DNA of 64,000 bases from an uncultured Gammaproteobacteria bacterium (GTDB lineage: Bacteria > Patescibacteriota > Microgenomatia > JALYQM01). Of the stretch, positions 17,822 through 58,021 are shown in pieces; the first letter of the stretch is position 1, and each line of letters opens with the position of its first letter. The notes below the pieces were generated by a model. The model searched no databases, was not told where the DNA came from, and saw only the letters and a list, made by a program, of their open reading frames with translations. The translations under genes were made by a program, and so were the position numbers. The stretch spans positions 443,364-507,363 of the forward strand of contig CAYOFQ010000001.1 in the NCBI GenBank assembly GCA_964403585.1. Direction: 5' to 3'.

Positions 17822-18069
17822 CATTTGTTACACCAACATAAATTACTCCCTTTAAACTTATTCTCAGGTAATGTGTACTGGAATGACAACCCAGCAAGCA
17901 AAAGAATTACTTAACAAAACGGGCGTTACACTTGATGACGAAGAAATAGAAAAAATCATCATTTGTTTCAATCAAATTATTGAAATTGGATTCGAATTGT
18001 ATGAAGCGCAACAAGTTGAAAAAGAATGATTATCTTGTAAATTTCATACCCTCGCTTGATAATGATGCC

Positions 18070-19653
18070 ATGAAAAAATACGCTATTGCGTACATACGAG
18101 TAAGCTCCGAAGAGCAAATCACTAACTTTAGTTTAGAAAATCAAAAAGAGTACTGTGTAAAAGAGGCTCATCGGCAAGGCTTCGAAATAGTGGAAATATT
18201 TAGAGAAGAAGGTGTAAGCGCAAAAGATCTAAATCGTCCTCAAATGATTCGTTTATTTGAATATTGCAGAAAATACAAGGGTAAAATTTCAACATTATTT
18301 ATTTACAAAATCGATCGAATTTCTCGTAATACTTTAGACTTCCTTTCTTTAAAGAAAAGATTAGCGGGATACGGAATAAGGGTCATCCCTGTTACCGAAC
18401 AAACCGAAGATAATCCGGCAGGTGAATTTATAGAAACTATGTTAGCAGCTAATGCCACTATGGATAATGCGACGAAAAGTATTCGTACATTAGATGGTAT
18501 GAAGAAGCGGGTCGAATCTGGATATGCTTTAGGCAGACCTAGAGTAGGTTATATTGTTTCAAATATAGAAGGTGACAAAGCTCATAATCCAGACCCTGAA
18601 CAATTTCATCTAGTTAAAAAGGCATGGATAGAAATGTCGACTGGAACATATACATTAGAATCCATAATTCCAGTAATGCAAAAACTTGGAATAGTAATAA
18701 AAATTGGAAATAGAAGAATACCTATAACTAGGAACCAACAAACACAAAGAATCTTTAGAGACAAATATTATGCAGGGTATGTGGTAAGTAATAAGTTCAA
18801 GATAAATAAAATTGGCAATCACTCGCCCATGATAAGTGAGGAATTATATTATAAAGTTCAAGGAATTATAGATAGGAGATCTTACTCTGCGGGTGTTAGC
18901 CATAATAAGCAAAACGAAGATTTCCCTTTAAGAGGCGTACTATGCGGTGAGTGCGGTAAACCAATGACAGGATCGTGGAGCCGGGGTAGAAAGAATAGGT
19001 ATGCGTACTATTATTGTGGTCAAGGTAGGCACAAGGCTCCATCAATTCCAAAAGATCAATTTGAGAGCGAGTTTGTCGACTGTTTACTGCAAATTCAACC
19101 CAAGAAAGAGTTTATATCTTTATTTAGTGCAATGCTAAAAGAAAAATGGGAAAGTAGATATCAGTATCTAAAGGACTTAAAAAAAGCTGCTGAAAGAGAA
19201 CTTGATGCATTGTATGAAGCACGGAGGAGACTTGTGGAGAAAAACCTGTCAGGCTTATATTCTGATGAAATTTTTCAAGAACAACTTACACTGATAGAAG
19301 ATCAAATATTAGTTAAAAAGATATCAAAATCTGAAACTGAGTTAGACGAGATTGATATAGATACTATTGTAAATTTTATGAATAATTTCTTAGCAAATAT
19401 TCATAAAGCATGGATCGATGGAAACTTATATCAGAAAAGAGTTCTATTCGGTTCTATATTCCCCAAAAACATTACTTACACAAAAGAAGGATATAGAACC
19501 ACGGAAATAGGGCTTCCATTCAGGTTAATCAGTGAATTGGAAGATACTTCTACCTCGTCGTGGGTCAACTGTTGGACAAACTTCGTACCTCCTTCGTACA
19601 GTATACTAGCCTCTATCCAATACCCTCCTACGCCCCAGTTGTATAACACGTAA
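18070..19653 (+). CDS. Large serine recombinase (integrase)
   Basis: MKKYAIAYIRVSSEEQ catalytic Ser motif, …IYKIDRISRN…, recombinase domain, CGECGKPMTG…YYYCG zinc ribbon, C-terminal coiled coil; the ORF extends upstream to 17980 but the catalytic motif favours the 18070 start. Confidence 0.8.
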   Translation: MKKYAIAYIRVSSEEQITNFSLENQKEYCVKEAHRQGFEIVEIFREEGVSAKDLNRPQMIRLFEYCRKYKGKISTLFIYKIDRISRNTLDFLSLKKRLAGYGIRVIPVTEQTEDNPAGEFIETMLAANATMDNATKSIRTLDGMKKRVESGYALGRPRVGYIVSNIEGDKAHNPDPEQFHLVKKAWIEMSTGTYTLESIIPVMQKLGIVIKIGNRRIPITRNQQTQRIFRDKYYAGYVVSNKFKINKIGNHSPMISEELYYKVQGIIDRRSYSAGVSHNKQNEDFPLRGVLCGECGKPMTGSWSRGRKNRYAYYYCGQGRHKAPSIPKDQFESEFVDCLLQIQPKKEFISLFSAMLKEKWESRYQYLKDLKKAAERELDALYEARRRLVEKNLSGLYSDEIFQEQLTLIEDQILVKKISKSETELDEIDIDTIVNFMNNFLANIHKAWIDGNLYQKRVLFGSIFPKNITYTKEGYRTTEIGLPFRLISELEDTSTSSWVNCWTNFVPPSYSILASIQYPPTPQLYNT

Positions 19654-19747: not shown

Positions 19748-21487
19748 ATGAAGCTTCGTCATCTGTCGATTAAAAACTTTAGAGGTATAAAGACGCTCGA
19801 CTGGAATATAGCCGAAAGCTTCGTGTGCCTATTAGGTGCAGGCGATTCGACTAAATCAACCATCTTGCTAGCCATTGAATACGTGCTATACCCTAACTTC
19901 GCACTATATATCCAAGATGCCGATTTCCATAATCAAGAGGTTGACACTCCAATAGTTATCACCGCCACCATAAGTGATATCCCTGATGATCTTACTAACG
20001 AAAAGAAGTTTGGACTAAGATTAAGAGGCTGGAACCCTATTGATTACACTACTCATGATGAGCCCTTTGAAGGAGATGAAAAAGCGCTAACGATACAACT
20101 CCTAGTAAGCAGCACGTTAGAACCACACTGGAGTGTGATTACAGAAAGGCATGCAGAAGGAGCAGCAATATCACACATTGATAGAGAAAAGCTAGGTGCT
20201 TCTCCGATAGGAACATTTCTAGAACGAGATTTATCATGGTCAAGGGGATCACCTTTACTTCGTTTAACAGGTAATCTAGATAATGCGGATCAAATAATGT
20301 TGTCTGCACGAAGAGGCTTAGGTCAGAGCATGCTAGCCAATCAGCAGACGAAAACTTGGGTAGAACAATGTACAAGTATAGGAGAAGTCGCTAAATCTAT
20401 TGGTGTCCACCCTAAAAATAATCTTATACCATCCCTTGATTTTAAGTCACTTTCTAATCTAAACTCAACACTCACACTATATGATGGAAACATACCGACG
20501 CGACAATACGGGCTTGGGAGCAAACGACTTTTAAACATGTCGATTCAACAGCAAAGTGTAAGTAATGGTGCACTGATACTGGTGGATGAGATTGAACATG
20601 GGCTCGAACCGCATAGGTTAAGGCATTTAATAAGGTATCTTAGGAGATCCTTATCCATCGTCGATTCCACTCGTATCGGTCAGGTAATATTCACCACTCA
20701 TTCAAGTACAAGTATAGTTGAGAGCAAGGCTAAAGAGTTACACTGTGTTATAGATAATGAAGGTGAAATAACGATAGTACAAGTCGGACAATCAATTCAA
20801 GATAAGGTTAGGCGGTGTCCAGAAGCACTTCTAGGAAGGAAAATAGTTATAGGTGAAGGTAAAACTGAATTTGGTGTAATCCGAGGGCTTGATATTGCCT
20901 GGGAGGCAGACGGTGATACCTGCTTTGGTACTTTAGGTATTGTTCCAGTAGATGGTGGTGGTTATACAGTAGCGCCATCTATTGCTATTGAGTTCGCTAA
21001 ACTTGGTTATCAAGTAGCTGTAATGGTTGATAGTGATCAGTCTATAAGTGATGAGCATCGAAAAGGTATTGAACTCCATAAAATATGTTTAATAGAGTGG
21101 GAAGATAAAACTAGCATCGAAGAAAGATTCTTCTTAGATATGCCGTGGTCTATGGTAAAAGAAGAACTGAGATACATAATAGAGAATCACCCAGATACGA
21201 ATAGGCTAAGCATTATACAGGCCATTATGGTGCAGCTCAATATAACAGGGTCTCCTAAAGATTGGGATATAGACCTAAATCTATGGATTGATAAAGGAAA
21301 AGAGGAGAATGACTTAAGGATAGCACTCGGTAAAGCCGCACACAAAGGATCTTGGTATAAACACCCAAACACAGGCATAGATTTAAGCCAACCCTTAGGA
21401 CATAAAATTGGATTATCCTTACATGACATGAAGGGAACCGATACTTACAATAAACTACTTAAATTGAAACACTGGTTATATGAGTGA
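19748..21487 (+). CDS. gajA: Gabija GajA-like OLD-family ATPase/TOPRIM nuclease
   Basis: N-terminal MKLRHLSIKNFRGI, P-loop GAGDSTKST, Walker B/LH region LVDEIEHGLEPHRL, C-terminal TOPRIM IVIGEGKTEFGV…VAVMVDSDQ; 579 aa; 8-bp overlap with the downstream helicase gene. Confidence 0.75.
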   Translation: MKLRHLSIKNFRGIKTLDWNIAESFVCLLGAGDSTKSTILLAIEYVLYPNFALYIQDADFHNQEVDTPIVITATISDIPDDLTNEKKFGLRLRGWNPIDYTTHDEPFEGDEKALTIQLLVSSTLEPHWSVITERHAEGAAISHIDREKLGASPIGTFLERDLSWSRGSPLLRLTGNLDNADQIMLSARRGLGQSMLANQQTKTWVEQCTSIGEVAKSIGVHPKNNLIPSLDFKSLSNLNSTLTLYDGNIPTRQYGLGSKRLLNMSIQQQSVSNGALILVDEIEHGLEPHRLRHLIRYLRRSLSIVDSTRIGQVIFTTHSSTSIVESKAKELHCVIDNEGEITIVQVGQSIQDKVRRCPEALLGRKIVIGEGKTEFGVIRGLDIAWEADGDTCFGTLGIVPVDGGGYTVAPSIAIEFAKLGYQVAVMVDSDQSISDEHRKGIELHKICLIEWEDKTSIEERFFLDMPWSMVKEELRYIIENHPDTNRLSIIQAIMVQLNITGSPKDWDIDLNLWIDKGKEENDLRIALGKAAHKGSWYKHPNTGIDLSQPLGHKIGLSLHDMKGTDTYNKLLKLKHWLYE

Positions 21488-22895
21488 AAACAGTATAGAG
21501 ACTATTATTAACGCTAAACGTGCTGCAATAGTAGCACCTGCTGGTTGTGGAAAGACTGAAACAATAGTAAAAGCTGTCGCAATTTCACCAGGAACGCAAC
21601 TTGTACTAACACATACTCATGCTGGTGTCGATTCACTTCAAAATAGGTTTAAAAAACATCAAGTAAATCACGAAAAATACAGGGTAGACACAATAGCAGG
21701 ATTCGTAACACGTTATATAGAAGCATATCCTGTCATGAGTGGCTGGATTGAAGTTAAGGGAGAGAAGAATAACTGGAACTATATGTATGAAGCTATGTCA
21801 CAATTGCTAGTTAATAGCATCATAAGGAAAGTTATACAGCGAACATATCAAGGTATATATATTGATGAATACCAGGATTGCACCTTAAGACAGCATTTTG
21901 TGTGTGATCAACTCGCCAACATCATACCATGCAGAGTCTTCGGAGACCCCTTGCAAGGGATTTTTGATTTTAATGATCAAATAGTCCAATGGGACACACA
22001 TGTATTTTCGTCATTCGACAAACTTGTTGAGTTGCAAACGCCTTGGAGATGGTACAAGTCGACAAATGAACCTGACAAGAGACTCGGGAATTGGCTGCTT
22101 GACTGTAGAGAGCATCTACTAAATGGCTGGCCAATAGACCTACAGCAAGCGCCACGAGATTCAGTTACCTGGGTAGATTCGAGTAAGGATGGGTATCTGT
22201 CTCTTATTCGGCAGTGTCGTCTATTGTTAAATGTTAGTGGGAACGTTATGGTTTTATTGAATCAGGATAAACAGTGCCATAGTCTGGCTCGTAGCCTTAG
22301 TGGAAAGTATCAATCAATGGAAGAAATGGAGTCGAGAGCACTTAAAAAATATAGTAAGCTACTTGATGATACTACGGGCCAAAAGCGGGTTTGTGTCATC
22401 ATAGATTTTGCTGTCGAATGCATGACCGAATCAACAGTATTAAAAAAAATACGCGAAGCTTTTATTGAAGGCAAACAATACAAGCTGCAAAAGAAGTATC
22501 CTCAACTTTTAATCCACCTTGAAGCTGTAATAGCTGCTGACAGCTGGTCGAATGTTCTTGCTGCTATTGATGGAATAGCTGCCTACATTAACGGTAACAT
22601 TTTTCGTAGAGAACTATGGAGTGAAATGAAACGAGCTTTGTTGTATGCAGAACAAAACCAGTCAACAAGCTTGCAGGAGAGTGCAGAATATGTAAGGGGC
22701 AGAACACGACTAATAGGTAGGTACATGCACTCACATATGATGTCACGCACTCTTTTGATTAAAGGACTTGAGTTTGATCATGTTGTTATTGCTGATGCTG
22801 AAAGCATGAATAAAGAAAATTTGTACGTTGCGCTTACACGGCCTAAGCATCAGCTTATAATCTTATCCAAAACTCCTATGCTACAGCCAAGGTAG
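21480..22895 (+). CDS. gajB: Gabija GajB-like UvrD-family helicase
   Basis: Walker A APAGCGKTE, IYIDEYQD (motif II), FGDPLQGIF, C-terminal VALTRPKHQLIILS; 471 aa. Confidence 0.7.
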   Translation: MSENSIETIINAKRAAIVAPAGCGKTETIVKAVAISPGTQLVLTHTHAGVDSLQNRFKKHQVNHEKYRVDTIAGFVTRYIEAYPVMSGWIEVKGEKNNWNYMYEAMSQLLVNSIIRKVIQRTYQGIYIDEYQDCTLRQHFVCDQLANIIPCRVFGDPLQGIFDFNDQIVQWDTHVFSSFDKLVELQTPWRWYKSTNEPDKRLGNWLLDCREHLLNGWPIDLQQAPRDSVTWVDSSKDGYLSLIRQCRLLLNVSGNVMVLLNQDKQCHSLARSLSGKYQSMEEMESRALKKYSKLLDDTTGQKRVCVIIDFAVECMTESTVLKKIREAFIEGKQYKLQKKYPQLLIHLEAVIAADSWSNVLAAIDGIAAYINGNIFRRELWSEMKRALLYAEQNQSTSLQESAEYVRGRTRLIGRYMHSHMMSRTLLIKGLEFDHVVIADAESMNKENLYVALTRPKHQLIILSKTPMLQPR

Positions 22896-23890
22896 TGCGC
22901 AATCTCTATTCCATATCTTCCTATGCTCCAGTGGTATAGCACCACCCCGGTAGACACCCCCAAATATACAAAAACGGGTCAGGCCCCTCGACTTACTATA
23001 TAAAACACAAGCACCCACCCCCGCCTTAAGTACTGGTACCTCTTTAGAAAGACGGTACTATCCACTACCATAATGTTATATTAGGGAGAGGAGTGTCAAA
23101 CGATTGTTTAGATTGGATCAAAATACAGCAGAAGTTATCCTGGGATACCCCGGCTGAGCCCAGAAAAAGAACTGAGTTCAAATACGGGAAAACTTCGGTT
23201 GTTTCTATATCAAACTATATCACATCGAAGTTTGGTATCTTGCGGATAACCAGAGCTTGTTTATCGGTACAGCTGCTAATCAAACCTATGTTCCTTTAGA
23301 TGCGGTGGGATGAAACTCGGGGTTCTGCATTTTTCGCCCGTCCTTAGCTCTGAGTTCTTACAACGTTTTGTTGCGTCCCCGGCATAGCTTTGCCGTAAAG
23401 GCTAACTCAGGTCAGATAGCCACTATCCACTCACAAGATTCAACTCTAACCATCAACTGCTTTTGCAGTATCCCAGTCGGGTGACACTTCTGCCATTATT
23501 CCACTTTGCTAGAGTTGCTGTCGGTCCTGTTTATCCCGTCATGCACCGAATGTTGGACGGATCTAAAGTGCTTGTTTCCGTTTAAGATTTGGGGGCGGTT
23601 GTCGTTATCTGCTATCGGAGAAAAGTCAGGTATCGTCGGGGACAACCATTCATGTTTATGAAGATAACTTAGCATACACTCTGGAAGATGTCAAAATGGG
23701 ATAGTCATAACAAGCGATTGTTGTAGTTTCGGCTTCGTTTTGCCTTCATCAGATAAGGATTCGTTGAACCTTATAACTACCTCCCTACTACCTAGCGCAA
23801 ACATTGTCTTTAAAATCATGGTGCCACAAGGGCGACCACAACTCAAAACTTTGTCTGCGGTAAGCAGTAGGGAGGCAGTCAGATCAAATC

Positions 23891-24337
23891 CTAGCCGCAG
23901 CTCGTGACCTCGACTGTGAAGTCGGTGCCAGGGAGACGGCCACTCGGCGCGGTGAAGGCGACGGAGATACCGTAGTCGTTATCGGAAACGAACGAGATCC
24001 GGTCAGCGGATGCGCCGCGCACGGGGAACGGAGAGTCGAGCTGGTACAGCGGGAAGTCGCTTGTCATGCGCTTGGCCTTCACGCCATTGACGCTGAACGG
24101 TGACAGCCCGGTGTAGTTAGCCATCACTGGCTTAGTGTGGCCGGTGATGAGCACCTCGTCGCCCGTATGAAGTGATTGGTCGATGCGGGGCGCAGCGGCC
24201 GCCGTAGGGTCGTTCGTCAGGGTTGTGATCGTTGTCGGGCAACCGCCACCGCCGTCAGCGAGTGCCGAGGGGGCGAAATACACAGCCGACGCGGCGAGCA
24301 TGGCGATGAGCGACAGGGTTGCGATGAGCTTACGCAT
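23891..24337 (-). CDS. Secreted hypothetical protein, GC-rich xenolog
   Basis: Signal peptide MRKLIATLSLIAMLAASAVYFAPSALA; coding sequence visibly GC-rich relative to flanks. Confidence 0.55.
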   Translation of the reverse strand: MRKLIATLSLIAMLAASAVYFAPSALADGGGGCPTTITTLTNDPTAAAAPRIDQSLHTGDEVLITGHTKPVMANYTGLSPFSVNGVKAKRMTSDFPLYQLDSPFPVRGASADRISFVSDNDYGISVAFTAPSGRLPGTDFTVEVTSCG

Positions 24338-25392
24338 TGTTATCTCCTTGTGGTATTGAACTCAAAGACAGACGTTAGAAAGCAGGAGTGCTTCCTAGTT
24401 GCGGCATACGCAACCTTTCTGACCTATTTTCATAGGCTTTCTCTTTACTATTTGGGACACTTCAGATAGAAACAGAGCAGTTTTTATCTCAAATGTCCCA
24501 ACTAGTTAGGGAGGACTTATCTTCCTATTGCTTACATAGATAGTAGGGAATTGTTGGAGCTTTGAACTTATTATGCTTTACCTCTAAGGCGATGATTGGG
24601 CGTCTATTTGGCTTAGCAAGCTCAAGGCTCCAATTTTCCCTACTAAAATAGTTTTAAGGTACTAGCTTACTTGAAGTAAGCTTAGCTCATAAGAATTATG
24701 CTCAGAGTGAGCCTAGTTGCTTTACGAGCAGCCTATATAATACCACATCTCATCAAAAAATACTATAGGATATAATACATAGAGTATAAAATATACTCAT
24801 TTAAACTATTGATTGTTCGCTATCGGTTACTTGAAGTATTTGCTGTAGCAGGCATTTTGTTCGCTACTAATTGAACTTGTACACGCACTTATGCATGTTG
24901 TGTCACGCTACAACCTTTGTCACACTCATCCACTTTTCTCTTGGCATCACTCAATCACATGTCATAGAGAAGGTTCTTTACGTGTCCTATTTCACGCTTG
25001 CCAATATTATTGCAGCACTTAAAGCTGATCCCCAAGACATTCTTCCGCTCGCGTAGTATTACCTATTGACTATCATCAGTCCTCTTAGTACCCTAGCAAC
25101 AATTAAGAGAAAAAGATCCGGCAAGAGTTACATCTGAATACATTGCGTACTAATTCTTCCTAAACAGCAGAACAACCTAGGCGTCCATACACTTGAACGC
25201 GCGAAGGGGGGAAACCTTAATACCAGTACTGTTTAGTTGCAAGAGGTGTACTTCTCATTAAAAGCATCGCGTTACAGACACGCGTTGGAGAAGTATGCCT
25301 CTTTTTTGTTATTTCCGCCTCACGCCTTACAGTTGTCATGATCCTCCCTAAGTCATTGTGCTGCTTATTTTTATCACTACGAAAGGGCATAT

Positions 25393-25806
25393 ATGAAAAA
25401 TAGTACATGTGTTATTTACCTCAGAACTTCAAATCCAGAAGAGTCGTCATACGACGCTCAACAAAAGATCTGCGAAAAGTATGCTCGAGAGCACAGAATG
25501 TCCGTAAGGGCTGTGTTTAAAGATGAGACATCGACGATAAGAATACAACAAAGCGCAGTGTTTAATGAGATGCTTAAATTCATCGAAGATCACCAGATCG
25601 ACCATATCGTGGTTGCACATGCTGATAGACTAGCGCGTAAGCTGATAGATGCAATATTGCTTGATGAGTTAGTTGCATCAAAGGGAGCCTCCATCAAAGC
25701 TGTGGAACACTTCAAACGATCTGTAAAAGAAAGATATATCGTACATTCGCTGCTTGCAGATTATTATGCAACACAATTACAGGATAGAAACGAGGTGAGC
25801 ATTTAG
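25393..25806 (+). CDS. Serine recombinase catalytic-domain-only protein (truncated resolvase)
   Basis: CVIYLRTSNPEES…HIVVAHADRLAR resolvase N-domain; no DNA-binding domain; 137 aa. Confidence 0.55.
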   Translation: MKNSTCVIYLRTSNPEESSYDAQQKICEKYAREHRMSVRAVFKDETSTIRIQQSAVFNEMLKFIEDHQIDHIVVAHADRLARKLIDAILLDELVASKGASIKAVEHFKRSVKERYIVHSLLADYYATQLQDRNEVSI

Positions 25807-26169
25807 TGTGCTAGTTATGAAGGGGGTCAGAGTAAGCTACTTCTCTGACCCTTATGATCGTACTGTAGCTTTTACTGAAAAAGATAGCCTCTGGCAGTGC
25901 GGATAGTTGATCTTGAAACATAATAAGTCCAAGCGTAACTCGTAACAGTATTAAGCGTGTACTTCTCTTTTCGTTATTTTCAACGCAATAAGGAGTACAT
26001 TACATGTTTACCGACGAAGAGTTATCTCGTTTCCGTGAACTATATCTTCTACATCACGGAACATTATTGTCAGAAGAAGAAGCGTTAGCTATCGCTACAC
26101 CCCTCAGTGAATGCTTTAAGGCCATTGCGAAACCATTTATACGGCCATACAATGCAAAGGAGAAACAAA

Positions 26170-27966
26170 ATGATGAATGAAATAGAACAGCCAGTAGAAT
26201 ATAAACGTCGTTCCAGTGATGACGATCATCAGATCGCAAGCATACCTTCTCAAGAGCGGGCTTTGAGAGACGGTATCCCCAACTATTCAAAGCTTGCATT
26301 TATAAAAAAGTTTGAGGAGAGTAAATCAGCTAAGAAACCAGGTAGACCATTCTTTAATGAGATGGTCGAGTTGCTTGAGTCGGGCAAAGCAAAGAGCATT
26401 GTGGTGTGGCATCTTAACCGCCTTGCACGTAACCCTGTTGATGGTGGACGCATAATCTGGGTAGTACAAAATTACGGTGTAAAGATTCACACGCCAGGCA
26501 AGACGTATACAAAGGACGAGCTTATTCTGTTGTATGTCGAGTTTGGCATGGCTAATCAATTTATCAACGATTTGCAGAAAACAACGAAGCGGGGACTAGA
26601 AGATAAAGTCTTATCAAAGCAAGCACCACAACTCGCTCCAGTAGGATACCTCAACAACACACTAAAGCGGCAAGGGGAACGTGACATTATTTCAGATGAA
26701 AAGCGATTTAATACGGTGAGAAAGATGTGGGACCTACTTCTCTCGGGCAACTACAACCCAAAGCAGATCTTCCTTATTGCAAAGGACGAGTGGTGCTTTA
26801 CTTGTAAAGACGGTCATCCTCTTTCTCGTTCCCGAATTTACGAGATGTTTCGAAACCCTTTCTATATGGGCAGGTTCAAACGGAATGGCGAAGTGCATGA
26901 CGGTACTCATCCACCGATGGTCACACCTCATGAGTTTTCATTAGCACAAAAGATTTTAGATGGTCATGGCAGACCACGAAAACGCACCAGAGAGATTATC
27001 TATAATCCACTTTTAAAATGTACTTGCGGTTCCAGTGTAACAACGGAAGAACGTTACCGTAAAATCTGCCCATCGTGCCATCACAAATACAATGCAGAAG
27101 TACACGCAAAGTGTCCAAAATGCCTTACAAAGGCTCCAGAAAAGACAACCCACTTCGCATACTGTCACTGTGATAGAGGCAGAGATAGCTCATGCACACA
27201 GCCACATATAACGATCAAAGACCTTGAAAAGCAGATTGATGAACTATTATCAACTATCGAGATACATCCAGATTTTGTTAAATGGGCGATGGATCACTTG
27301 CGGAGAGTTAACGCAGAAGAGGGGAGCTTTGTTCAATCAAAGCTCTCTTCTCTCAATGACCGGATCGTAGCTATTACACGACTTGAAACATTGTTGTTTG
27401 AAAAGTGGGCGAGTGAATCAAACGCTGATGGCAGCCTTATCTCTGATGAGCAATATAAAACACGCAAGAACAACTACGCAGACGAAAAGAAAACCTTACA
27501 CGAACAACTTAATGCTACGCATTACAGTCATGACAACTGGCTCGAAACAGCAGAGAAGACTTTTGTGTTTGCACGAAACGCCCGTTACTGGTTTGCACAA
27601 GGAGACAAGATTCAGAAGAGAGCAATCATACAAGCACTTGGTTCGAACCTGATACTAAAAGATCGAAAACTGCATTTAGATCTGCAAAAACCCTTACAGT
27701 ACATCCAAGAAGCGAAGATTCTGATCGAGTCGGCAAATGATAACTTCGGACCCGCAGATAGTGTAGTAATAAAGGGAAAAAAGTCTGATTTAGACTTTGA
27801 AAATCTCGTTGGGGGTGATCGACGGGATTCGAACCCGCAACCAGCAGCTCCACAAACTGCTGCTCTACCATTGAGCTACGACCACCATAAGTTCACAAAA
27901 AGCCCAGATTTCGGGCTGAACTCACGTGAGAGTATAACAAAATTCCGGGCTAAAGTATATATTTGA
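26170..27966 (+). CDS. Large serine recombinase (integrase) adjacent to tRNA-His
   Basis: MMNEIEQPVEYKRRSSDDDHQ…SIPSQERA catalytic region, VVWHLNRLARN, recombinase domain, Cys-rich zinc-ribbon region (CTCGS…CPSCHH…CPKC), C-terminal coiled coil; the ORF has no stop until 27966 and reads through the antisense tRNA-His, so the true C-terminus is probably near 27800; the upstream 26107 start is probably over-called. Confidence 0.75.
   Translation: MMNEIEQPVEYKRRSSDDDHQIASIPSQERALRDGIPNYSKLAFIKKFEESKSAKKPGRPFFNEMVELLESGKAKSIVVWHLNRLARNPVDGGRIIWVVQNYGVKIHTPGKTYTKDELILLYVEFGMANQFINDLQKTTKRGLEDKVLSKQAPQLAPVGYLNNTLKRQGERDIISDEKRFNTVRKMWDLLLSGNYNPKQIFLIAKDEWCFTCKDGHPLSRSRIYEMFRNPFYMGRFKRNGEVHDGTHPPMVTPHEFSLAQKILDGHGRPRKRTREIIYNPLLKCTCGSSVTTEERYRKICPSCHHKYNAEVHAKCPKCLTKAPEKTTHFAYCHCDRGRDSSCTQPHITIKDLEKQIDELLSTIEIHPDFVKWAMDHLRRVNAEEGSFVQSKLSSLNDRIVAITRLETLLFEKWASESNADGSLISDEQYKTRKNNYADEKKTLHEQLNATHYSHDNWLETAEKTFVFARNARYWFAQGDKIQKRAIIQALGSNLILKDRKLHLDLQKPLQYIQEAKILIESANDNFGPADSVVIKGKKSDLDFENLVGGDRRDSNPQPAAPQTAALPLSYDHHKFTKSPDFGLNSRESITKFRAKVYI
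27810..27886 (-). tRNA. tRNA-His (GTG) with encoded G-1 and CCA
   Basis: Minus strand G-GTGGTCG…anticodon loop TTGTGGA (GTG)…T arm GGTTCGAATCC…CGATCAC-C-CCA; full cloverleaf pairs by hand. Confidence 0.85.
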
Positions 27967-47325: not shown

Positions 47326-47349
47326 AGTGCTATCATAAATTAAACATTT

Positions 47350-48027
47350 ATGAAAAAACTTGACGGCAATATACTCAACGCTCCTTTTTTTATTCCGTTC
47401 CTGATCGCGTTCATTTTACTGGCCTATCTTGGCTTAACATCCATTAAACTTCCCTCCCGAACGCCCAATCTGCCTGGGTATCCCAAAATACTATTCAATC
47501 AAAAGGCCAAGTTCTTTCAGGACACCAATTATCCCAGCCAGTTTGCCAACGTCTCTCAAAATAGTCTAATTGGATTAAAATGTGCCCCCGCAACAAGTTA
47601 TGATCAGAAAAATCCGGATAAACTGTTTGACGCCGTACTCGCCGGAACGCACCAGGATCAGTATGGTCATGCCATTGATGTCTGGAATGTAACTTCATTC
47701 CAAAAATGTGATGCTGCTAATGGATCCAGAATCGTCTTATTTACCGTATTAGCCGATGATTGGGTCGAGTTTTTTGATGTGGGAATTGTTGCCGACGACA
47801 AAACAATCCGTCCGCTAGTATATATTCGCAATAATAACAATGAGTCCAAATGCTTCAACCCGATGTACTACACAAACGATAAGAAATTGTATTTTCAGTG
47901 TAATCACCATTCACCGGTTGAAGACGGATCTAAGATTTTGGAAGCTAATCTCAGCAGCGGAACTATGAAAGTAGTTTATGCGTGTAGTGATAATGCTAAA
48001 TACGGCGTGAGATGCCCGGAGGAATAA
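47350..48027 (+). CDS. Hypothetical Cys-rich extracytoplasmic protein
   Basis: N-terminal TM/signal; 8 Cys in the exported part. Confidence 0.4.
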   Translation: MKKLDGNILNAPFFIPFLIAFILLAYLGLTSIKLPSRTPNLPGYPKILFNQKAKFFQDTNYPSQFANVSQNSLIGLKCAPATSYDQKNPDKLFDAVLAGTHQDQYGHAIDVWNVTSFQKCDAANGSRIVLFTVLADDWVEFFDVGIVADDKTIRPLVYIRNNNNESKCFNPMYYTNDKKLYFQCNHHSPVEDGSKILEANLSSGTMKVVYACSDNAKYGVRCPEE

Positions 48028-48052
48028 AAATACTTAAATTTTAAGAGACACT

Positions 48053-49087
48053 TCAAGTAGTACGAAGCTCTTTTATCATGTTCCAAACTTCTGGGTGGTC
48101 TTGATCTTTATTATCAGGAATTCTTAATAGCTTGACATAGGTCCCCTTGCCAACATGATTATCAATAGACCGAGCTAGTTGGGGGACCAATGACGTGTCT
48201 CGACGAGCTGCTTGAACGTTTTGTACGAACTCCTCGCGCTCTTTGTCTGAGTAGAATCTCAATACTGATTCAAATAAACTGCCCGCCAAAGCAGTACGCG
48301 ATATAAGTGTTAATCTAAGATTCTTATGAACGGGGTCTTCGTAAACTACTTGTGCGTACTTTGGTTCAATTAAGATACTTTCCCCAAATAAATTATTAGG
48401 GGCAGAAAATGAAAGGAACCCATGAGGATTAGGTCGCTTATCAAGTTGTTTATAGATAAGTAAGTTTCGCTCCGCAAGCTTATCAGCTAAGAAAGCAGTG
48501 CCCACAACTTCGCGAAATTCTGTCTGCATATACGCCACAAATCCTTCTTCGAGTACCCATGGGCTTAGTGGGGAATTTGGGTTAAGGATTTCAAATCCTT
48601 GTCTGGAATAAATATTTGTCACCTTATTTTCTCTTATACTGTACACATTGGCAAAATGGCTTTCACCCGTCAAATGAAGACTCTCATGAAATCCACGGGA
48701 GACTAATTCAAGCACTGTATCTTGATACGGATCTGCCACTACACCGGCACCATGAATGTACCCAGCGTACCCTTTCTCAACTTTCTTGAATGGATGACGC
48801 ATTGCGGCAGTAAATTGATCCTGATCATCTTTAAAAAGAATAACAGGTGCTTGAACCTCGTCCAACGGAATATGAAAACGCTCAGCAATAAACGGCGTGA
48901 TCATAGCTAATGCTCGCTGTATATTTTCTGGTAACTTATGAGTATGATCGTACTGTTTTAGAATCTCACGATCAGCAGACGCAGACACGATTGTAACGGC
49001 ACCTTCCGCGATAAAGCGTGGATTATCATGATGAATTGGATGTATACGAAACTCTGGTCGGGATGAAAAATCGGATTCTTCTGTCAT
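48053..49087 (-). CDS. Hypothetical protein
   Basis: 344 aa, no recognised family. Confidence 0.4.
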   Translation of the reverse strand: MTEESDFSSRPEFRIHPIHHDNPRFIAEGAVTIVSASADREILKQYDHTHKLPENIQRALAMITPFIAERFHIPLDEVQAPVILFKDDQDQFTAAMRHPFKKVEKGYAGYIHGAGVVADPYQDTVLELVSRGFHESLHLTGESHFANVYSIRENKVTNIYSRQGFEILNPNSPLSPWVLEEGFVAYMQTEFREVVGTAFLADKLAERNLLIYKQLDKRPNPHGFLSFSAPNNLFGESILIEPKYAQVVYEDPVHKNLRLTLISRTALAGSLFESVLRFYSDKEREEFVQNVQAARRDTSLVPQLARSIDNHVGKGTYVKLLRIPDNKDQDHPEVWNMIKELRTT

Positions 49088-49321
49088 ACGGACAGTATAT
49101 CAAGTTTCACGAAACACAACCCGGGAATAACAGCACAACATAGCTCAAAAAGTAAAAACAATCTCTCGCATCACTGCAAGAAAAGCTTCACTGTTCTGAT
49201 CTCGTGTACCGTTTATTGTGTTCCGTTTTCCGTAGGGAGGGCACGCGAAGCGCGGCGTGTGTGCATCGCGCACCCTCCCTGCTTACATGCCTATGGCTCC
49301 GTCATCGGTCGCGTGGTTTGA

Positions 49322-50317
49322 TTATCGTTTCTCGTAGGTGACCGTCTCGTCGTCGTCGAAGGGAGCCCCGCCGCCCGCATCGAACTCGCGCTTGAGTTCC
49401 TCGATACGAGCGATCGCGCCCTTGATCAGCTGCTTGGGATCAGCGCCGATCAAGTTGATGCCGGGTATCAACCCCAGCACCAGGCCACTAATCATATCGA
49501 TCAGCTCTTGGTCGGTCACCCCTGCCGCAAGCATGCCGAGCAGCTCGAAGAGGCCGGCCATCATGAGCGAATCCGCGCTCGTGCCACCCATGTTCTCAAG
49601 GGTTAGCATAAGGTTGGTATTGCCTTTGAACGACGTAAGGGCGAGCACGATCCGCCGATCTGTTCCCAGCCGCGGCTGCATGGCCCACGTCCTCGTTTCC
49701 GCACCGAGAACACTGTCCCCGATCCGGAGGCGGTAGTCATACGCGTTCTCGCTACCGTCGACGAGGCTTCCAGTCCAGCGCGCGATGCGCCTAAGATGAG
49801 AGGATTGCTGGCCGAACAGGTCATGGGTATCGTCCGCGAGGAGCATGAGCGCGAACTCGATCGGGTGCATATTCTGCACCTGCTTGAGGTCGCGCTGTGC
49901 TCCCGCCAGTTCGGCAGTAATCTCTTCAACCTGCGCCTCCAAGCCGGGCACGCGGTTTGCCTCCGAACGGGCTTCTTCCAGCAACATAGTCGTCGATTGG
50001 TGAGCTTCGATCGCAGCCGTATGGGTGGCTTGCAGCTGTTCTAGCTCTTGGGCCAGTTGCTGACGTAGCTCCTCAGCTTCCCGAGCTGCGGTGTCCGCCT
50101 GCTCAATTCGCTGGTTCAACTCCTGGTTGGTGGCCGTGAGCTGAGCGTTCGCTGTGGCCAGCTGCTCATTCGTGGTGGCGAGCTGCGCCTCGGCGGTAAC
50201 AGCCGCATCCAGCAGCTGCCGCAGCTTGAGAACCATCCCTTTCAGGGTGTCACGCTGTCTCCACAGCGGCCCTCCTAGTGCGTCGATATTCGTATTCCGT
50301 ACGTCAAGTTCTGACAT
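49322..50317 (-). CDS. GC-rich coiled-coil protein (xenolog-like), unknown function
   Basis: N-terminal heptad-rich LATTNEQLATANAQLTATNQELNQ… coiled coil; coding region visibly GC-rich with multi-frame shadow ORFs typical of high-GC DNA. Confidence 0.5.
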   Translation of the reverse strand: MSELDVRNTNIDALGGPLWRQRDTLKGMVLKLRQLLDAAVTAEAQLATTNEQLATANAQLTATNQELNQRIEQADTAAREAEELRQQLAQELEQLQATHTAAIEAHQSTTMLLEEARSEANRVPGLEAQVEEITAELAGAQRDLKQVQNMHPIEFALMLLADDTHDLFGQQSSHLRRIARWTGSLVDGSENAYDYRLRIGDSVLGAETRTWAMQPRLGTDRRIVLALTSFKGNTNLMLTLENMGGTSADSLMMAGLFELLGMLAAGVTDQELIDMISGLVLGLIPGINLIGADPKQLIKGAIARIEELKREFDAGGGAPFDDDETVTYEKR

Positions 50318-50695
50318 GATCCGTGTCCTTGTCTACTATTCGATTCTTCCGTCATACTCATGCGTGTCCTTACGTAAAAGCCCTACGTTCGTACGTCCTT
50401 CTAGGGGAGTTTCCTCCTTCCTAGCTAGTCGCGGATCCAATGCACTTCTCAAGAGAAGTACTTTCTAAGCTCAAAACTCTAGCCTACAAAGTACCTCTCT
50501 TGAAAGTTTGGAAAATAAAACACAATAAATTCCCGGGTTGTTAAAGAACAAAATGGGCATGTTGCCCATCGTCGCTGCGATACATGATTCCCGTAGGAAA
50601 CCGTTCGCAAAGACGCAGTATTTTATATCATAATCTTAATCGATAGTCAATACTATAGGATAGGTTTGTTGATATTTAACAATTGAATTATTGAC

Positions 50696-52907: not shown

Positions 52908-53603
52908 TTACGGCTGTAGTAGCAAAACCAAGGTGACGATCGCGACTACGACCAATACCAGGTAGATAGTGATCGAGGCCAACGCCGATATCCGGGATAA
53001 TGATTTGTCCTGGCGGTTGCCCTCGACGTTTGCGACGCCGAGAATGAGCTGTACACCCATCAGGTATACGAACACCCACCAGGGCACCACACTGAGCCAG
53101 TAGAGCGCAATGATTGCCGAAATCGAGAAGATGGTCAGCAAGCAAGATAATGGTCGGTTACTGCCGATTAAAGCACGCAGAACACGTCCACCGTCAAGCG
53201 GGCTGATTGGAATCAAATTCAATAACACGAGTTGGGCATTGAGAGTGCCCACCATAATACTGAGTTTGTTCCACTCCGCGATTTCCGACAGGCGAATGCA
53301 CACCAGGCACACGAGAATGTTCATAAATGTACCGGCCAAAGAGAAGGCGAGATCCTCACCACGAGTAATCTCGTACATTACCTCCTCAGCTTTCTCAGGC
53401 ACCACAACAGCGCCCAGCGGCGGCACAAAGATCATCCACGCCTTGTATCTGAAGGCTCGTAACACTAGCCAATGGCCAAGCTCATGAATGAAGAGCGTCG
53501 CAACAATGACGTTGGCCATAACAGGATCACCAGTCAGGTACCTGAACACCAGAATTGAGAGTGCGGCCGACGCGATCGCGGTGAAGGATTTTTTAAGGTG
53601 CAT
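52908..53603 (-). CDS. M50 (site-2 protease-like) metallopeptidase, GC-richer paralog
   Basis: HELGHW HExxH motif in TM helix, LIPISPLDGGRVL motif; start MHLKK (53603); alternative upstream start at 53672. Confidence 0.6.
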   Translation of the reverse strand: MHLKKSFTAIASAALSILVFRYLTGDPVMANVIVATLFIHELGHWLVLRAFRYKAWMIFVPPLGAVVVPEKAEEVMYEITRGEDLAFSLAGTFMNILVCLVCIRLSEIAEWNKLSIMVGTLNAQLVLLNLIPISPLDGGRVLRALIGSNRPLSCLLTIFSISAIIALYWLSVVPWWVFVYLMGVQLILGVANVEGNRQDKSLSRISALASITIYLVLVVVAIVTLVLLLQP

Positions 53604-53896
53604 CTGTCCCTCGCTACTAAAAACGGTTAATACTTGGTGGTGATACTTACTACCTAAACAACTATGTAGCAAATATCACCACCAAAAGTTCGTGAAATTA
53701 AAGTGCAGGTTGAGCTGAAACGAGCACAAAGTACTGATTGCAGCTGGGGGTATTATAGCACAAAATAGGTATAAAGTAAAATACTATAGGTTAGTAAGTG
53801 AGGCGCAAAATTAACCAATCATTTTGAGAAAAAGGCTTAATAAGAATAAAAACGTTAAAATAAGCAAATTAAGGGGCAGTTCCCTGCTTTTAGCCA

Positions 53897-53931: not shown

Positions 53932-53933
53932 TG

Positions 53934-54018
53934 TGCAGAGGGAAGGATTCGAACCTTCGTAGACAGTTAAGTCGACAGATTTACAGTCTGTTCCGATTGG
54001 CCACTCCGGCACCTCTGC
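53934..54018 (-). tRNA. tRNA-Tyr (GTA), class II long variable arm, CCA not encoded
   Basis: GCAGAGG-TG-CCG…anticodon stem ACAGA/TCTGT loop CTGTAAA; long variable arm; T arm GAAGGTTCGAATCCTTC; acceptor CCTCTGC-A. Confidence 0.8.
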
Positions 54019-54092
54019 GAATTTCCTTTGCTTAACACAAAGGAAATTCGTCCCCAAACGAAGTGCAGGGGACTTCCTTAATGTATTAAGCC

Positions 54093-54167
54093 TGGAGCCG
54101 ACTGCCAGATTCGGACTGGCGACCCACAGTTTACAAAACTGTTGCTCTACCGCTGAGCTAAGTCGGC
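54093..54167 (-). tRNA. tRNA-Thr (TGT)
   Basis: GCCGACT…D arm TAGCTCAGCGGTAGAGC…anticodon stem ACAGT/ACTGT loop TTTGTAA…AGTCGGC-T-CCA. Confidence 0.8.
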
Positions 54168-58020: not shown

Positions 58021-58021
58021 A

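What the first reader, a model, noticed from the sequence alone, without database searches (positions are those of the whole stretch)
49100..50480. GC-rich xenolog 2: coiled-coil protein gene with imperfect GC-rich inverted repeat downstream
The gene 49322..50317 (minus) is GC-rich enough to give many shadow ORFs on both strands, unlike the rest of the window. It encodes an Ala/Gln/Thr-rich heptad coiled coil (LATTNEQLATANAQLTATNQEL…) plus an unrecognised C-domain. Just 3' of it (49240-49290) is a GC-rich imperfect palindrome, agggagggcacgcg…cgcgcaccctccct. About 335 bp upstream of its start, at ~50653, sits the recurring tactatagga motif (see the motif finding).
Basis: seen in the sequence. 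Interest (0 to 1): 0.5.

Follow-up and report, generated by a model that had tools for sequence, protein, structure and literature searches.

The report
Foreign GC-rich orphan gene islet
A roughly 1.3 kb stretch of 60% GC DNA, carrying one real gene for a coiled-coil protein with no detectable relatives, sits between ordinary genes of a 43% GC uncultured bacterium; it looks like a recent import from an unknown donor, and its function is unknown.

Summary
Gene 49322..50317 (minus, 331 aa) has GC 0.60 and GC3 0.72. The 63 long ORFs of the window average 0.43 for both. Its amino-acid usage is also typical of a high-GC organism. Syntenic loci from the nearest relatives found are 40-42% GC. The locus is identical in two independent single-run assemblies.

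The N-terminal half is a statistically supported heptad coiled coil. The C-terminal 182 aa has no relative among 1.84 billion representative proteins, PDB, Pfam, NCBIfam, PHROGs, PADLOC, phages or plasmids. It could not be modelled (pLDDT 39).

The palindrome lies at 49234-49280. It folds strongly (z -3.6) but has no U tract. A canonical terminator-like hairpin follows at 49183-49152.

New points:
- The insert is bracketed by a composite 32-nt inverted repeat.
- A 16-nt copy of the neighbour gene's start lies 25 nt upstream of the ATG.
- All five exact TAGGGAGG sites in the window lie at the two GC-rich islets.

Best reading: a recently acquired foreign orphan gene, expressed from a host-type promoter through a structured leader. 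Function is unresolved. No donor was found, and absence from sister genomes could not be tested.

The parts
49322..50317 (-). Protein-coding gene, 331 aa (P0001). Residues 24-150 form a heptad coiled coil. Residues 150-331 are an orphan domain with predicted helix, four strands, then three or four helices. Two Gly-rich hydrophobic helices lie at about 248-290, followed by an acidic tail.
   Evidence: ORF and translation. GC1/2/3 of 0.675/0.410/0.723 fits coding in this frame. Two in-frame TAG stops lie 18-24 nt upstream of the ATG (read). Heptad test. Structure predictions. Hydropathy. No homologues.
50326..50330 (-). Shine-Dalgarno-like AAGGA, 8 nt before the ATG.
   Evidence: Read directly from the minus-strand sequence. 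Function is inferred.
49234..49280 (.). GC-rich imperfect palindrome, 41 nt after the stop codon. It begins at GTAGGGAGG (49232-49240), which is exactly where AT-rich DNA changes to GC-rich DNA. No U tract follows on either strand.
   Evidence: Inverted repeat I3, 18-nt arms, 83% complementary. RNA fold z -3.57. GC profile. Not reported by the terminator scan.
49152..49183 (-). Canonical intrinsic-terminator-like hairpin plus T run (TTTCTTGCAGTGATGCGAGAGA, then TTGTTTTTAC), in AT-rich DNA between the GC hairpin and the next gene. It lies inside the 83-nt segment that interrupts the left arm of the flanking inverted repeat.
   Evidence: Terminator scan. The number of such sites in the region is not above the shuffled expectation, so this is a consensus match only.
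49116..49128 (.). Outer left arm (A) of the flanking inverted repeat, ACAACCCGGGAAT. It pairs with 50529-50541.
   Evidence: I6, 13/13 complementary. Local BLAST E 0.001. On its own it is not rare: an exact 13-nt inverted repeat appears in 19.5% of simulated regions.
49212..49231 (.). Inner left arm (B), TTTATTGTGTTCCGTTTTCC. It pairs with 50510-50529 and abuts the GC-rich hairpin.
   Evidence: I2, 17/20 complementary. Collinear with arm A.
50510..50541 (.). Right arm (B' and A', contiguous, 32 nt): GGAAAATAAAACACAATAAATTCCCGGGTTGT. With the left arms it brackets 49116-50541 (1426 bp).
   Evidence: The two repeats abut on this side and are nested in the correct order on the other. That adjacency is what makes the composite repeat non-random; this is my own estimate, not a simulation.
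50449..50503 (.). AT-rich 23-nt-arm hairpin or palindrome in the 5' leader, directly inside arm B'.
   Evidence: I1, 87% complementary, 9-nt loop. It is the main stem in the leader fold. The only Rfam hits are sub-threshold miRNA-precursor matches, taken as chance.
50542..50570 (-). Terminator-like hairpin plus T run (GATGGGCAACATGCCCATT, then TTGTTCTTTA), directly upstream of arm A'. It may be an attenuator, or the end of a short leader RNA.
   Evidence: Terminator scan. Fold.
50622..50650 (-). Sigma-70-type promoter-like site facing the gene: TTGACT, 17 nt, TATAAA, with a TG extended -10. It would give a leader of about 300 nt.
   Evidence: Read from the sequence. The automatic scan missed it because it requires T at position 6 of the -10 hexamer. 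Inferred only.
50649..50662 (+). 14-mer AATACTATAGGATA, identical to 24759-24772 upstream of the other GC-rich gene. Its reverse complement abuts and overlaps the -35 element above.
   Evidence: Leader-versus-leader local alignment: 2 of 300 shuffles reach the observed score.
50342..50357 (.). 16-nt direct repeat GATTCTTCCGTCATAC, 15/16 identical to 49074-49089. The latter is the start codon and first five codons of the neighbour gene 48053..49087.
   Evidence: D1. A direct repeat this good appears in 2.5% of simulated regions. Its meaning is unexplained.
49074..49089 (.). Partner copy of the 16-nt direct repeat, overlapping the ATG of the 344-aa neighbour gene.
23776..24337 (-). Companion islet ('xenolog 1'): gene 23891..24337 (148 aa, N-terminus looks like a signal peptide, GC 0.633, GC3 0.785), plus a 3' hairpin at 23776-23879 whose outer arms are CCTCCCTAC / GTAGGGAGG.

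Best explanation
This is a recently acquired piece of foreign, high-GC DNA carrying one real protein-coding gene. The GC-rich core is 49232 to about 50320. Measured between the flanking inverted repeats, the insert is 49116-50541, or 1.4 kb. It sits in what would otherwise be the divergent promoter region between a photolyase gene and an orphan 344-aa gene. The host is an uncultured bacterium of about 42% GC, probably related to Patescibacteria/CPR.

Shown:
- The gene is a compositional outlier at the nucleotide, codon and amino-acid levels.
- It is a true ORF with coding-type GC1/2/3.
- Its product has a heptad coiled coil and an orphan C-terminal domain.
- The insert carries a GC-rich stem-loop at its 3' end and is bracketed by a composite 32-nt inverted repeat.

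Inferred:
- The gene is transcribed from a host-type promoter at 50650-50622, through a strongly structured 300-nt leader that contains a terminator-like hairpin, a possible attenuator.
- The transcript ends at the host-type terminator at 49183-49152.
- The GC-rich stem-loop is the donor's own U-less ('I-shaped') terminator or an RNA-stabilising hairpin.

Function, as a low-confidence inference of about 0.2: the coiled coil drives self-association, and the Gly-zipper-like hydrophobic helices (GLVLGLIPGINLIG) attach the C-terminal domain to the membrane. That would fit a stand-alone accessory protein such as an exclusion or defence effector, or an envelope-associated scaffold.
For: Composition:
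- GC 0.602 and GC3 0.723, against ORF means of 0.434 and 0.429.
- 100-nt GC profile.
- Codon choice shifts to G/C-ending codons: GAG 0.66 against 0.32, CAG 0.74 against 0.51, no TTA.
- GARP minus FYMINK is +11.2, against a host mean of -10.3, sd 6.5, max 0.4.
- The nearest relatives found (PriA 78% and 64% identical, collinear over window 54.8-64 kb) are 40-42% GC, with no 200-nt window above 0.56.

Real locus: identical sequence and context in two independent single-run assemblies. One is a 56.7 kb contig spanning both islets.

Real gene: 331-codon ORF, double stop just upstream, AAGGA 8 nt before the ATG. Significant heptads. Confident long helix.

Orphan: only itself among 8000 word-sharing candidates. 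Only itself plus three spurious eukaryotic repeat proteins among 1.84 billion representatives. Nothing in PDB, Pfam, NCBIfam, PHROGs or PADLOC beyond coiled-coil noise far below cut-offs. Nothing in viral, metagenome, phage or plasmid DNA. No paralogue in the window or in 0.94 Mb of fetched loci.

Structures: hairpin z -3.57. Leader z -5.76. Terminator-like sites. Flanking repeats.
Against: - No donor and no homologue, so transfer rests on composition alone.
- Absence from sister genomes could not be checked.
- The native-GC neighbour (344 aa) is also an orphan. Lack of homologues is therefore common in this lineage and does not by itself mark foreignness.
- No integrase or transposase lies within several kb, and there is no target-site duplication next to the inverted repeat.
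- The 16-nt direct repeat does not fit the boundaries given by the inverted repeats.
- Promoter, attenuator and terminator are consensus matches only.
- The C-domain model is unusable (pLDDT 38.8). The hydrophobic helices peak at Kyte-Doolittle 1.5, below the usual transmembrane threshold. The functional guess is therefore weak.
Confidence: 0.72

Rival explanations
1. The gene is the passenger of a small non-autonomous mobile cassette. Both GC-rich single-gene islets of the window would then be cargo of one element family, or were captured by one site-specific system. That system would recognise the GGGAGG/CCTCCC-armed hairpin at the 3' end of the cargo. The 32-nt inverted repeats would be the element ends.
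For: - A composite 32-nt inverted repeat brackets 49116-50541.
- All five exact TAGGGAGG sites in the window (expected 1.0; 1 of 100 shuffles reaches 5) lie at the two islets.
- In both islets GTAGGGAGG, on the same strand, sits at the AT-to-GC transition just 3' of the gene.
- An identical 14-mer lies 330-420 nt upstream of both genes in the same orientation.
- Islet 1 lies among serine recombinase genes.
Against: - The two islets share nothing beyond the 9-mer and the 14-mer.
- The hairpin arms are in opposite order in the two islets.
- There is no target-site duplication.
- The inverted repeat has no second copy in the window.
- No recombinase lies near islet 2.
- Each arm taken singly is not rare by chance.
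- A third, near-identical copy of the 14-mer sits upstream of a native gene.
- The motif association was noticed after the fact.
Confidence: 0.15
2. The gene is native and vertically inherited. Its high GC would come from its unusual amino-acid composition (Ala/Gln/Thr/Leu/Arg-rich coiled coil) or from local mutational bias.
For: Orphan genes of native GC are common here. The coiled-coil half is rich in Ala, Gln and Thr. A few native genes reach GC3 of 0.62, for example 52908..53672.
Against: - GC3, which is largely independent of amino-acid content, is 0.72. The 63 ORFs average 0.43 (sd 0.08, both outliers included), so it lies about 3.6 sd above the mean.
- Synonymous codon choice is shifted for every amino acid examined.
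- The non-coiled C-terminal half and the untranslated 3' hairpin are just as GC-rich.
- The GC change is abrupt at 49232.
Confidence: 0.05
3. The islet is an assembly chimera or contaminant sequence joined into the contig.
For: Abrupt compositional boundaries. No homologues anywhere.
Against: The same 1.3 kb with both junctions is 100% identical in two separate single-run Logan assemblies (SRR16481186, 56.7 kb contig; SRR16481187). It is also in the window's own source, recorded as an NCBI contig of 1.57 Mb. The flanks carry repeats that link inside and outside sequence. The two runs may come from one sample, so they are not fully independent.
Confidence: 0.03
4. The long ORF is a chance open frame in GC-rich non-coding DNA, for example a structured RNA or a decayed remnant, and makes no protein.
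For: GC-rich DNA gives long shadow ORFs on both strands. There is no homologue to show purifying selection.
Against: - By my calculation, at 60% GC the stop frequency is about 0.031 per codon. A 331-codon open frame then has probability of about 3e-5.
- The GC3 > GC1 > GC2 pattern is specific to this frame.
- Heptad periodicity is significant.
- A Shine-Dalgarno-like site sits at the right distance, and a double stop precedes the ATG.
- No Rfam family matches.
Confidence: 0.04

Closest known systems
Compositionally atypical ('alien') genomic islets and orphan genes acquired by horizontal transfer
   Same: A single gene with GC, GC3, codon usage and amino-acid usage far from the host, with sharp boundaries, lying in an intergenic region between housekeeping genes.
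   Different: No integrase or transposase nearby, no adjacent tRNA (the nearest is 3.6 kb away), no identifiable donor and no homologue at all. Absence from relatives was not demonstrated.
Integron gene cassette (ORF followed by an attC imperfect palindrome)
   Same: One ORF followed closely by an imperfect palindrome. A second, unrelated single-gene islet in the same window has a hairpin that shares the arm motif.
   Different: The palindrome arms (GTAGGGAGGG / CCCTCCCTGC) do not carry the RYYYAAC...GTTRRRY core sites. There is no IntI tyrosine recombinase in the window, no cassette array, and the arm order differs between the two islets.
MITE-like or non-autonomous terminal-inverted-repeat element carrying a passenger gene
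   Same: A 32-nt terminal inverted repeat brackets 1426 bp with no transposase inside.
   Different: No target-site duplication. One arm is interrupted by 83 nt. No other copy is in the 64 kb window. The rest of the genome could not be examined.
U-less ('I-shaped') intrinsic terminators, described from my own knowledge of the literature for high-GC Actinobacteria
   Same: A GC-rich stem of about 18 bp a few tens of nt after the stop codon, with no U tract.
   Different: Neither the activity nor the donor taxon is known. A host-type terminator with a T run follows about 50 nt further on, which suggests the GC hairpin alone may not terminate in this host.
SMC/JetC/LmuB/Rad50 and phage tape-measure coiled-coil segments (best database hits)
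   Same: A long heptad coiled coil. Weak matches cover residues 20-185 only.
   Different: Scores are 13-26 bits, against cut-offs in the hundreds. There are no ATPase head domains. At 331 aa the protein is a fraction of the length of those families. The matches are compositional noise.

Membership tests
Horizontally acquired genomic islet | Nucleotide composition and codon usage deviate from the host genome | tested here: met
   GC 0.602 and GC3 0.723, against 0.434 and 0.429. Synonymous codon shifts and GARP-FYMINK of +11.2 against -10.3. Sister loci are 40-42% GC.
Horizontally acquired genomic islet | Absent from the syntenic position in close relatives | not testable with these tools
   Relatives exist (PriA 78% identical, collinear with window 54.8-64 kb). 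The metagenome scan found only relatives of 51% identity or less.
Horizontally acquired genomic islet | A homologue in a plausible donor lineage | tested here: not met
   No homologue in 5.8 billion clusters (word-indexed), in 1.84 billion representatives (exhaustive search with the C-domain), or in viral, metagenome, phage or plasmid DNA.
Horizontally acquired genomic islet | Associated mobility gene or tRNA integration site | tested here: not met
   Neighbours are photolyase, NUDIX, an M50 peptidase, orphan genes, VKOR and DHO dehydrogenase. The nearest tRNAs are at 53933-54167. Recombinase genes occur only at 18-28 kb.
Integron gene cassette | attC site with R'' RYYYAAC and R' GTTRRRY core sites flanking an imperfect palindrome | tested here: not met
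   The palindrome at 49234-49280 has arms GTAGGGAGGGCACGCG / CGCGCACCCTCCCT with no AAC...GTT cores. The consensus is recalled from established knowledge.
Integron gene cassette | IntI integrase and an array of co-oriented cassettes | tested here: not met
   No tyrosine recombinase turned up among the ORFs I scanned, and the neighbours are housekeeping genes in mixed orientation.
Non-autonomous TIR transposable element (MITE-like) | Terminal inverted repeats | tested here: inconclusive
   Composite 32-nt repeat, 13/13 plus 17/20, with the left arm split by 83 nt. Single arms are not rare in simulations. The adjacency of the two arms argues against chance.
Non-autonomous TIR transposable element (MITE-like) | Target-site duplication directly flanking the TIRs | tested here: not met
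   The flanks are CACGAAAC and TAAAGAAC, with no direct repeat abutting the arms. The 16-nt direct repeat lies at different positions.
Non-autonomous TIR transposable element (MITE-like) | Multiple copies in the genome | tested here: inconclusive
   No second copy in the 64 kb window or in 2.7 kb beyond it.
Rho-independent terminator (for the GC-rich palindrome) | GC-rich stem-loop directly followed by a U tract | tested here: not met
   The stem is present and stable. On the sense strand the following sequence is ACGGAAAACGGAAC, and the scan did not call it. The site at 49183-49152 does meet the criterion.
Coiled-coil protein | Heptad periodicity of hydrophobic residues in a long helix | tested here: met
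   Hydrophobic occupancy at a/d positions is 0.60 against 0.11 elsewhere for residues 24-75 (2 of 1000 shuffles), and 0.86 against 0.06 for residues 126-150 (3 of 1000). Residues 76-120 are not significant. Helix 3-120, with 10-residue block means of pLDDT up to 94.
SMC / JetC / LmuB / Rad50-type proteins | ABC-type ATPase head domains flanking the coiled coil, and a score above the family cut-off | tested here: not met
   Matches cover only the coiled coil and score 13-26 bits, against cut-offs of 245-1087. There is no P-loop domain in Pfam.

The most novel reading that the evidence does not exclude
The two GC-rich single-gene islets of this window may be cargo of a previously undescribed gene-capture or cassette system in a CPR-like bacterium. 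Its signature would be a GGGAGG/CCTCCC-armed hairpin at the cargo's 3' junction, with GTAGGGAGG exactly at the AT-to-GC transition in both, plus a shared 14-mer upstream. The 331-aa orphan would then be one of many exchangeable accessory proteins, possibly defence-related or membrane-acting, imported from high-GC organisms.
Probability: 0.1. Interest if true: 0.6.

Novelty: new member of a known kind. Interest (0 to 1): 0.3.

Why it matters
If the reading is right, this is a clean, unameliorated example of recent gene import into a small-genome, CPR-like lineage from a much more GC-rich donor. That bears on how such bacteria, often episymbionts of other cells, pick up accessory functions.

The protein founds a family with no detectable relatives. 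Its C-terminal domain is therefore a candidate new fold or function.

The shared junction motif between the two islets would matter more if it is confirmed genome-wide, because it would point to a specific capture mechanism.

As it stands, this is one more foreign orphan gene of unknown function. It is useful as an annotation and as a lead, and it is not a surprise to a specialist.

Tried and rejected
**Homology searches**
- The full-length search was swamped by coiled-coil words and returned only the query itself.
- The exhaustive phmmer search with the C-domain gave three hits. All are eukaryote-type tandem-repeat proteins matched in 5-7 short stretches. I rejected them as score inflation by repeats.
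- Pfam, PADLOC, PHROGs and NCBIfam gave only coiled-coil noise far below cut-offs.
- A PDB sequence search gave one irrelevant repeat protein at E 0.004.

**Structure**
- Single-sequence AlphaFold gave pLDDT below 50 for the C-domain, both in the full-length run and alone.
- I did not run fold searches, because such models give meaningless matches. No alignment can be built without homologues.

**Empty-site comparison**
- The neighbour P0002 has no relatives.
- The photolyase relatives are at most 61% identical. The five whose contexts I looked at (P0008, P0009, P0010, P0013, P0014) share a different conserved neighbourhood, YibE_F-MFS-NTP_transferase downstream of the photolyase.
- True sisters were found through PriA, but with 3 kb flanks that stop short of the site.
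- The last metagenome scan, with an M50-type protease alignment, picked poor patterns and found only distant relatives.
- Look-ups of window-end proteins added only 2.7 kb of new genome.

**Other checks**
- The integron attC idea was rejected because the core sites are absent.
- A tandem 21-nt DNA repeat under the QLATxNx heptads was not detected by TRF.
- Rfam returned nothing above threshold, only chance miRNA-precursor hits on the AT-rich hairpin.
- A literature search for the run accessions found nothing. A general search on Patescibacteria gene transfer gave nothing specific.
Full report
**What is there**

The window averages 42.9% GC (sd 5.6% in 200-nt windows). Only two places stay above 54% for long and reach about 65%: 23801-24438 and 49158-50378. 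At 100-nt resolution, the second island rises from 0.45 to 0.59 at about 49200. It stays at 0.57-0.65 to about 50300, then falls through an intermediate stretch (0.46-0.51 up to about 50450) back to 0.29-0.42.

The island holds one long ORF, 49322..50317 on the minus strand (331 aa), plus five shadow ORFs of 50 aa or more on both strands. Among 63 non-overlapping ORFs of the window, mean GC is 0.434 (sd 0.047) and mean GC3 is 0.429 (sd 0.082). This gene has GC 0.602 and GC1/2/3 of 0.675/0.410/0.723. The only comparable gene is 23891..24337, with 0.633 and GC3 0.785.

Synonymous codon choice is shifted throughout: GAG 0.66 against 0.32, CAG 0.74 against 0.51, ACG 0.38 against 0.15, and no TTA. 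The protein itself has high-GC amino-acid usage. GARP minus FYMINK is +11.2%, against a host mean of -10.3% (sd 6.5, max 0.4). K/(K+R) is 0.27 against 0.58.

**Is it real, and is it a gene?**

The same sequence, with both junctions, is 100% identical in two single-run Logan assemblies. One of these is a 56.7 kb contig that spans from window position 54002 to 2.7 kb beyond the window start. It therefore covers both GC islets. An assembly chimera is unlikely.

Four points support a real gene:
- By my calculation, a 331-codon open frame at 60% GC has a chance probability of about 3e-5.
- The GC3 > GC1 > GC2 pattern fits this frame.
- Two in-frame TAG codons lie 18-24 nt upstream of the ATG.
- AAGGA sits 8 nt before the ATG.

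**The protein**

Residues 24-75 show significant heptad periodicity, with Leu at d positions and Asn at a positions in QLATxNx heptads (2 of 1000 shuffles). Residues 126-150 do as well (3 of 1000). Residues 76-120 do not. Single-sequence AlphaFold gives a continuous helix for residues 3-120, with 10-residue block means of pLDDT above 90 for residues 21-70.

The C-terminal 182 residues are predicted as helix, four strands, then three or four helices, but with pLDDT below 50 in both runs. I did not attempt a fold comparison on such a model. Two Gly-rich hydrophobic helices lie at about 248-290 and include GLVLGLIPGINLIG. They peak at Kyte-Doolittle 1.5, below a confident transmembrane call. An acidic tail follows.

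No family library gives anything beyond coiled-coil noise. The hits are SMC, JetC, LmuB, Rad50 and tape-measure proteins at 13-26 bits, against cut-offs in the hundreds. The word-indexed search of 5.8 billion clusters returned only the protein itself. The exhaustive HMMER search of 1.84 billion representatives with the C-domain returned itself plus three eukaryote-type tandem-repeat proteins. Those are matched in 5-7 short stretches, and I reject them as artefacts. PDB, viral contigs, JGI metagenomes, phage records and plasmid records gave nothing. There is no paralogue in the window or in 0.94 Mb of fetched loci. The protein is an orphan.

**The host**

The window carries ordinary bacterial genes: def-fmt-priA, DHO dehydrogenase, aminotransferase, photolyase, trehalase and tRNAs.

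PriA is 78% identical in two MAGs and 64% in a third. After that it drops to about 42%, mostly in Saccharibacteria, Parcubacteria and other Patescibacteria MAGs. The three close MAG loci are collinear with window 54.8-64 kb and are 40-42% GC, with no 200-nt window above 0.56. The native composition of the lineage is thus about 40-43%, and the islet is about 18 points higher.

The native-GC neighbour (48053..49087, 344 aa, with an HExxH motif) is also without relatives. Being an orphan is therefore common in this lineage. It is the composition, not the lack of homologues, that marks the islet as foreign.

**Anatomy of the flanks**

Reading the gene's sense strand (the minus strand) from upstream to downstream:
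- A promoter-like TTGACT, 17 nt, TATAAA with a TG extended -10, at 50650-50622 (read).
- A terminator-like hairpin plus T run at 50570-50542.
- A contiguous 32-nt sequence at 50541-50510.
- A 23-nt-arm AT-rich hairpin at 50503-50449.
- A leader of intermediate GC, containing a 16-nt copy (15/16) of the start-codon region of the neighbour gene at 50357-50342.
- The gene itself.
- The GC-rich imperfect palindrome at 49280-49234, with 18-nt arms, 83% complementary. The fold of the surrounding 126 nt has z -3.57.
- The two parts of the inverted copy of the 32-nt sequence, at 49231-49212 (17/20) and 49128-49116 (13/13). They are separated by 83 nt that contain a canonical terminator-like hairpin plus T run at 49183-49152.
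- The ATG of the neighbour gene at 49087.

The 303-nt leader region is strongly structured (z -5.76).

The GC-rich palindrome has no U tract on either strand and was not called as a terminator. Its first arm, GTAGGGAGG, begins exactly where AT-rich DNA turns GC-rich (49232).

In simulations that keep local composition, a 16-nt direct repeat this good occurs in 2.5% of regions. An exact 13-nt inverted repeat occurs in 19.5%. Two inverted-repeat diagonals of 20 nt with at most 3 mismatches, the number observed, occur in 7%. The inverted-repeat arms are thus unremarkable one by one. The two parts do abut on one side and are nested in the right order on the other. That is what makes the composite repeat unlikely to be chance; this is my own estimate, not a simulation.

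No direct repeat abuts the inverted-repeat ends. The 16-nt direct repeat does not coincide with them. I cannot reconcile the two sets of repeats in one insertion model and leave this unexplained.

**Link to the other GC islet**

The two islets share no extended similarity. They do share two short motifs in the same arrangement relative to the gene.

The first motif is TAGGGAGG:
- It occurs five times exactly in the window, against 1.0 expected (1 of 100 shuffles reaches five).
- All five are at the two islets: 23780 (-), 23868 (+), 24507 (+), 25343 (-) and 49233 (+). An imperfect partner lies at 49274.
- In both islets GTAGGGAGG on the + strand lies just 3' of the GC-rich gene, at the AT-to-GC transition, and forms one arm of a hairpin.
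- The arm order is reversed between the two hairpins.

The second motif is the 14-mer AATACTATAGGATA:
- It lies 332 and 422 nt upstream of the two start codons (2 of 300 shuffles in a leader-versus-leader comparison).
- A third copy with one mismatch lies 108 nt upstream of the native M50-type gene 52908..53672.
- In two of the three cases its reverse complement runs into a -35/-10-like pair.
- It may therefore be part of host promoter regions rather than of the islets.

Islet 1 sits within a clearly mobile region. That region holds two large serine recombinases, a resolvase fragment, a low-GC AAA_15/AAA_21 plus helicase pair, and tRNA-His. Islet 2 has no mobility gene nearby.

**Interpretation**

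The best-supported explanation is a recent, unameliorated import of a single gene from an unknown high-GC donor. It landed in the divergent intergenic region between the photolyase gene and the 344-aa gene.

Expression is probably from a host-type promoter through a structured, possibly attenuating leader. Termination is probably at a host-type terminator. The GC hairpin would be the donor's own U-less terminator or a stabilising stem-loop. That comparison with actinobacterial I-shaped terminators rests on my knowledge of the literature and was not tested here.

What the protein does is not resolved. The anatomy is a self-associating coiled coil plus a Gly-zipper-like hydrophobic helical pair. 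That makes a membrane-associated accessory protein, such as an exclusion or defence effector or an envelope scaffold, my best guess, at low confidence.

The more novel possibility is that both islets are cargo of one cassette-type capture system marked by the GGGAGG-armed hairpin. My evidence does not exclude it, but it rests on two short motifs noticed after the fact. I put it at about 0.1-0.15.

**Comparison with known systems and verdict**

The islet behaves like a classic compositionally atypical genomic islet or orphan acquisition:
- It fails the tested defining features of an integron cassette: no attC core sites, no IntI, no array.
- It fails those of an SMC-type protein: no ATPase heads, sub-threshold scores.
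- The GC hairpin fails those of a canonical intrinsic terminator: no U tract.
- It is inconclusive for a MITE-like element: inverted repeats are present, but there is no target-site duplication and no second copy seen.

The finding is real and the foreign-origin reading is well supported by composition. It is a new member of a known kind of feature, and I rate its interest as modest.

Noticed in passing
window 23776-24337: The other GC-rich islet: gene 23891..24337 (minus, 148 aa, N-terminus looks like a signal peptide, GC 0.633, GC3 0.785, no family hit). A 35-nt-arm hairpin at 23776-23879, 12 nt after the stop, has outer arms CCTCCCTAC / GTAGGGAGG.
   Followed up: partly
window 24499-25358: A 17-nt inverted repeat, CAACTAGTTAGGGAGGA / TCCTCCCTAAGTCATTG, brackets about 830 nt with no ORF of 60 aa or more apart from two short, unsupported ones (24871..25056 and 25217..25408, the latter overlapping the right arm). 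This stretch contains the 14-mer AATACTATAGGATA (24759) and several hairpins. With 22900-23890, it means about 2 kb around islet 1 has no convincing ORF and no Rfam hit.
   Followed up: partly
window 16700-28000: A mobile or defence island of lower GC (0.30-0.40). It holds large serine recombinases at 17980..19653 and 26107..27966, and a resolvase-like N-terminal fragment at 25393..25806. It also holds an AAA_15/AAA_21 ATPase at 19748..21487, overlapping a 471-aa ORF (21480..22895) that I read as a UvrD-like helicase from the sequence only, without a family search. The pair looks Gabija-like. tRNA-His is at 27810-27886.
   Followed up: partly
window 53780-53793, and 52908..53672: A third copy (1 mismatch) of the AATACTATAGGATA motif lies 108 nt upstream of the M50-type peptidase gene. 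That gene has the third-highest GC3 in the window (0.62). In all three cases the gene is on the minus strand and the motif on the plus strand. In two of the three, the motif's reverse complement runs into a -35/-10-like pair with a TG extended -10.
   Followed up: partly
window 46258-49087: Three consecutive native-GC genes (355, 225 and 344 aa) have no Pfam or NCBIfam hit. The 225-aa and 344-aa proteins are singleton 90% clusters, and the 344-aa protein (motif HESLH, possibly a metalloprotease) has no homologue in the word-indexed search.
   Followed up: partly
window 37360-39831: An 823-aa fusion of a ResIII/SNF2-type helicase with a sigma-70 region-4 C-terminus. Its NCBIfam hits include the MzaA anti-phage-associated sigma factor at sub-threshold score.
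   Followed up: no
window 57418-58630, against L007 5526-5534: Two genes (200 aa, and a 202-aa HD-domain 5'-deoxynucleotidase-like protein) are present in the window between def and fmt. They are absent at that position in the 78%-PriA sister MAG locus L007.
   Followed up: no
window 50575-50615 (minus strand): Between the promoter-like site and the terminator-like hairpin upstream of the gene lies a stable stem-loop (GCGUCUUUGCGAACGG...CGCAGCGACG). Promoter, stem-loop and terminator together could make a short RNA of about 70 nt, or an attenuator. It matches no Rfam family.
   Followed up: partly
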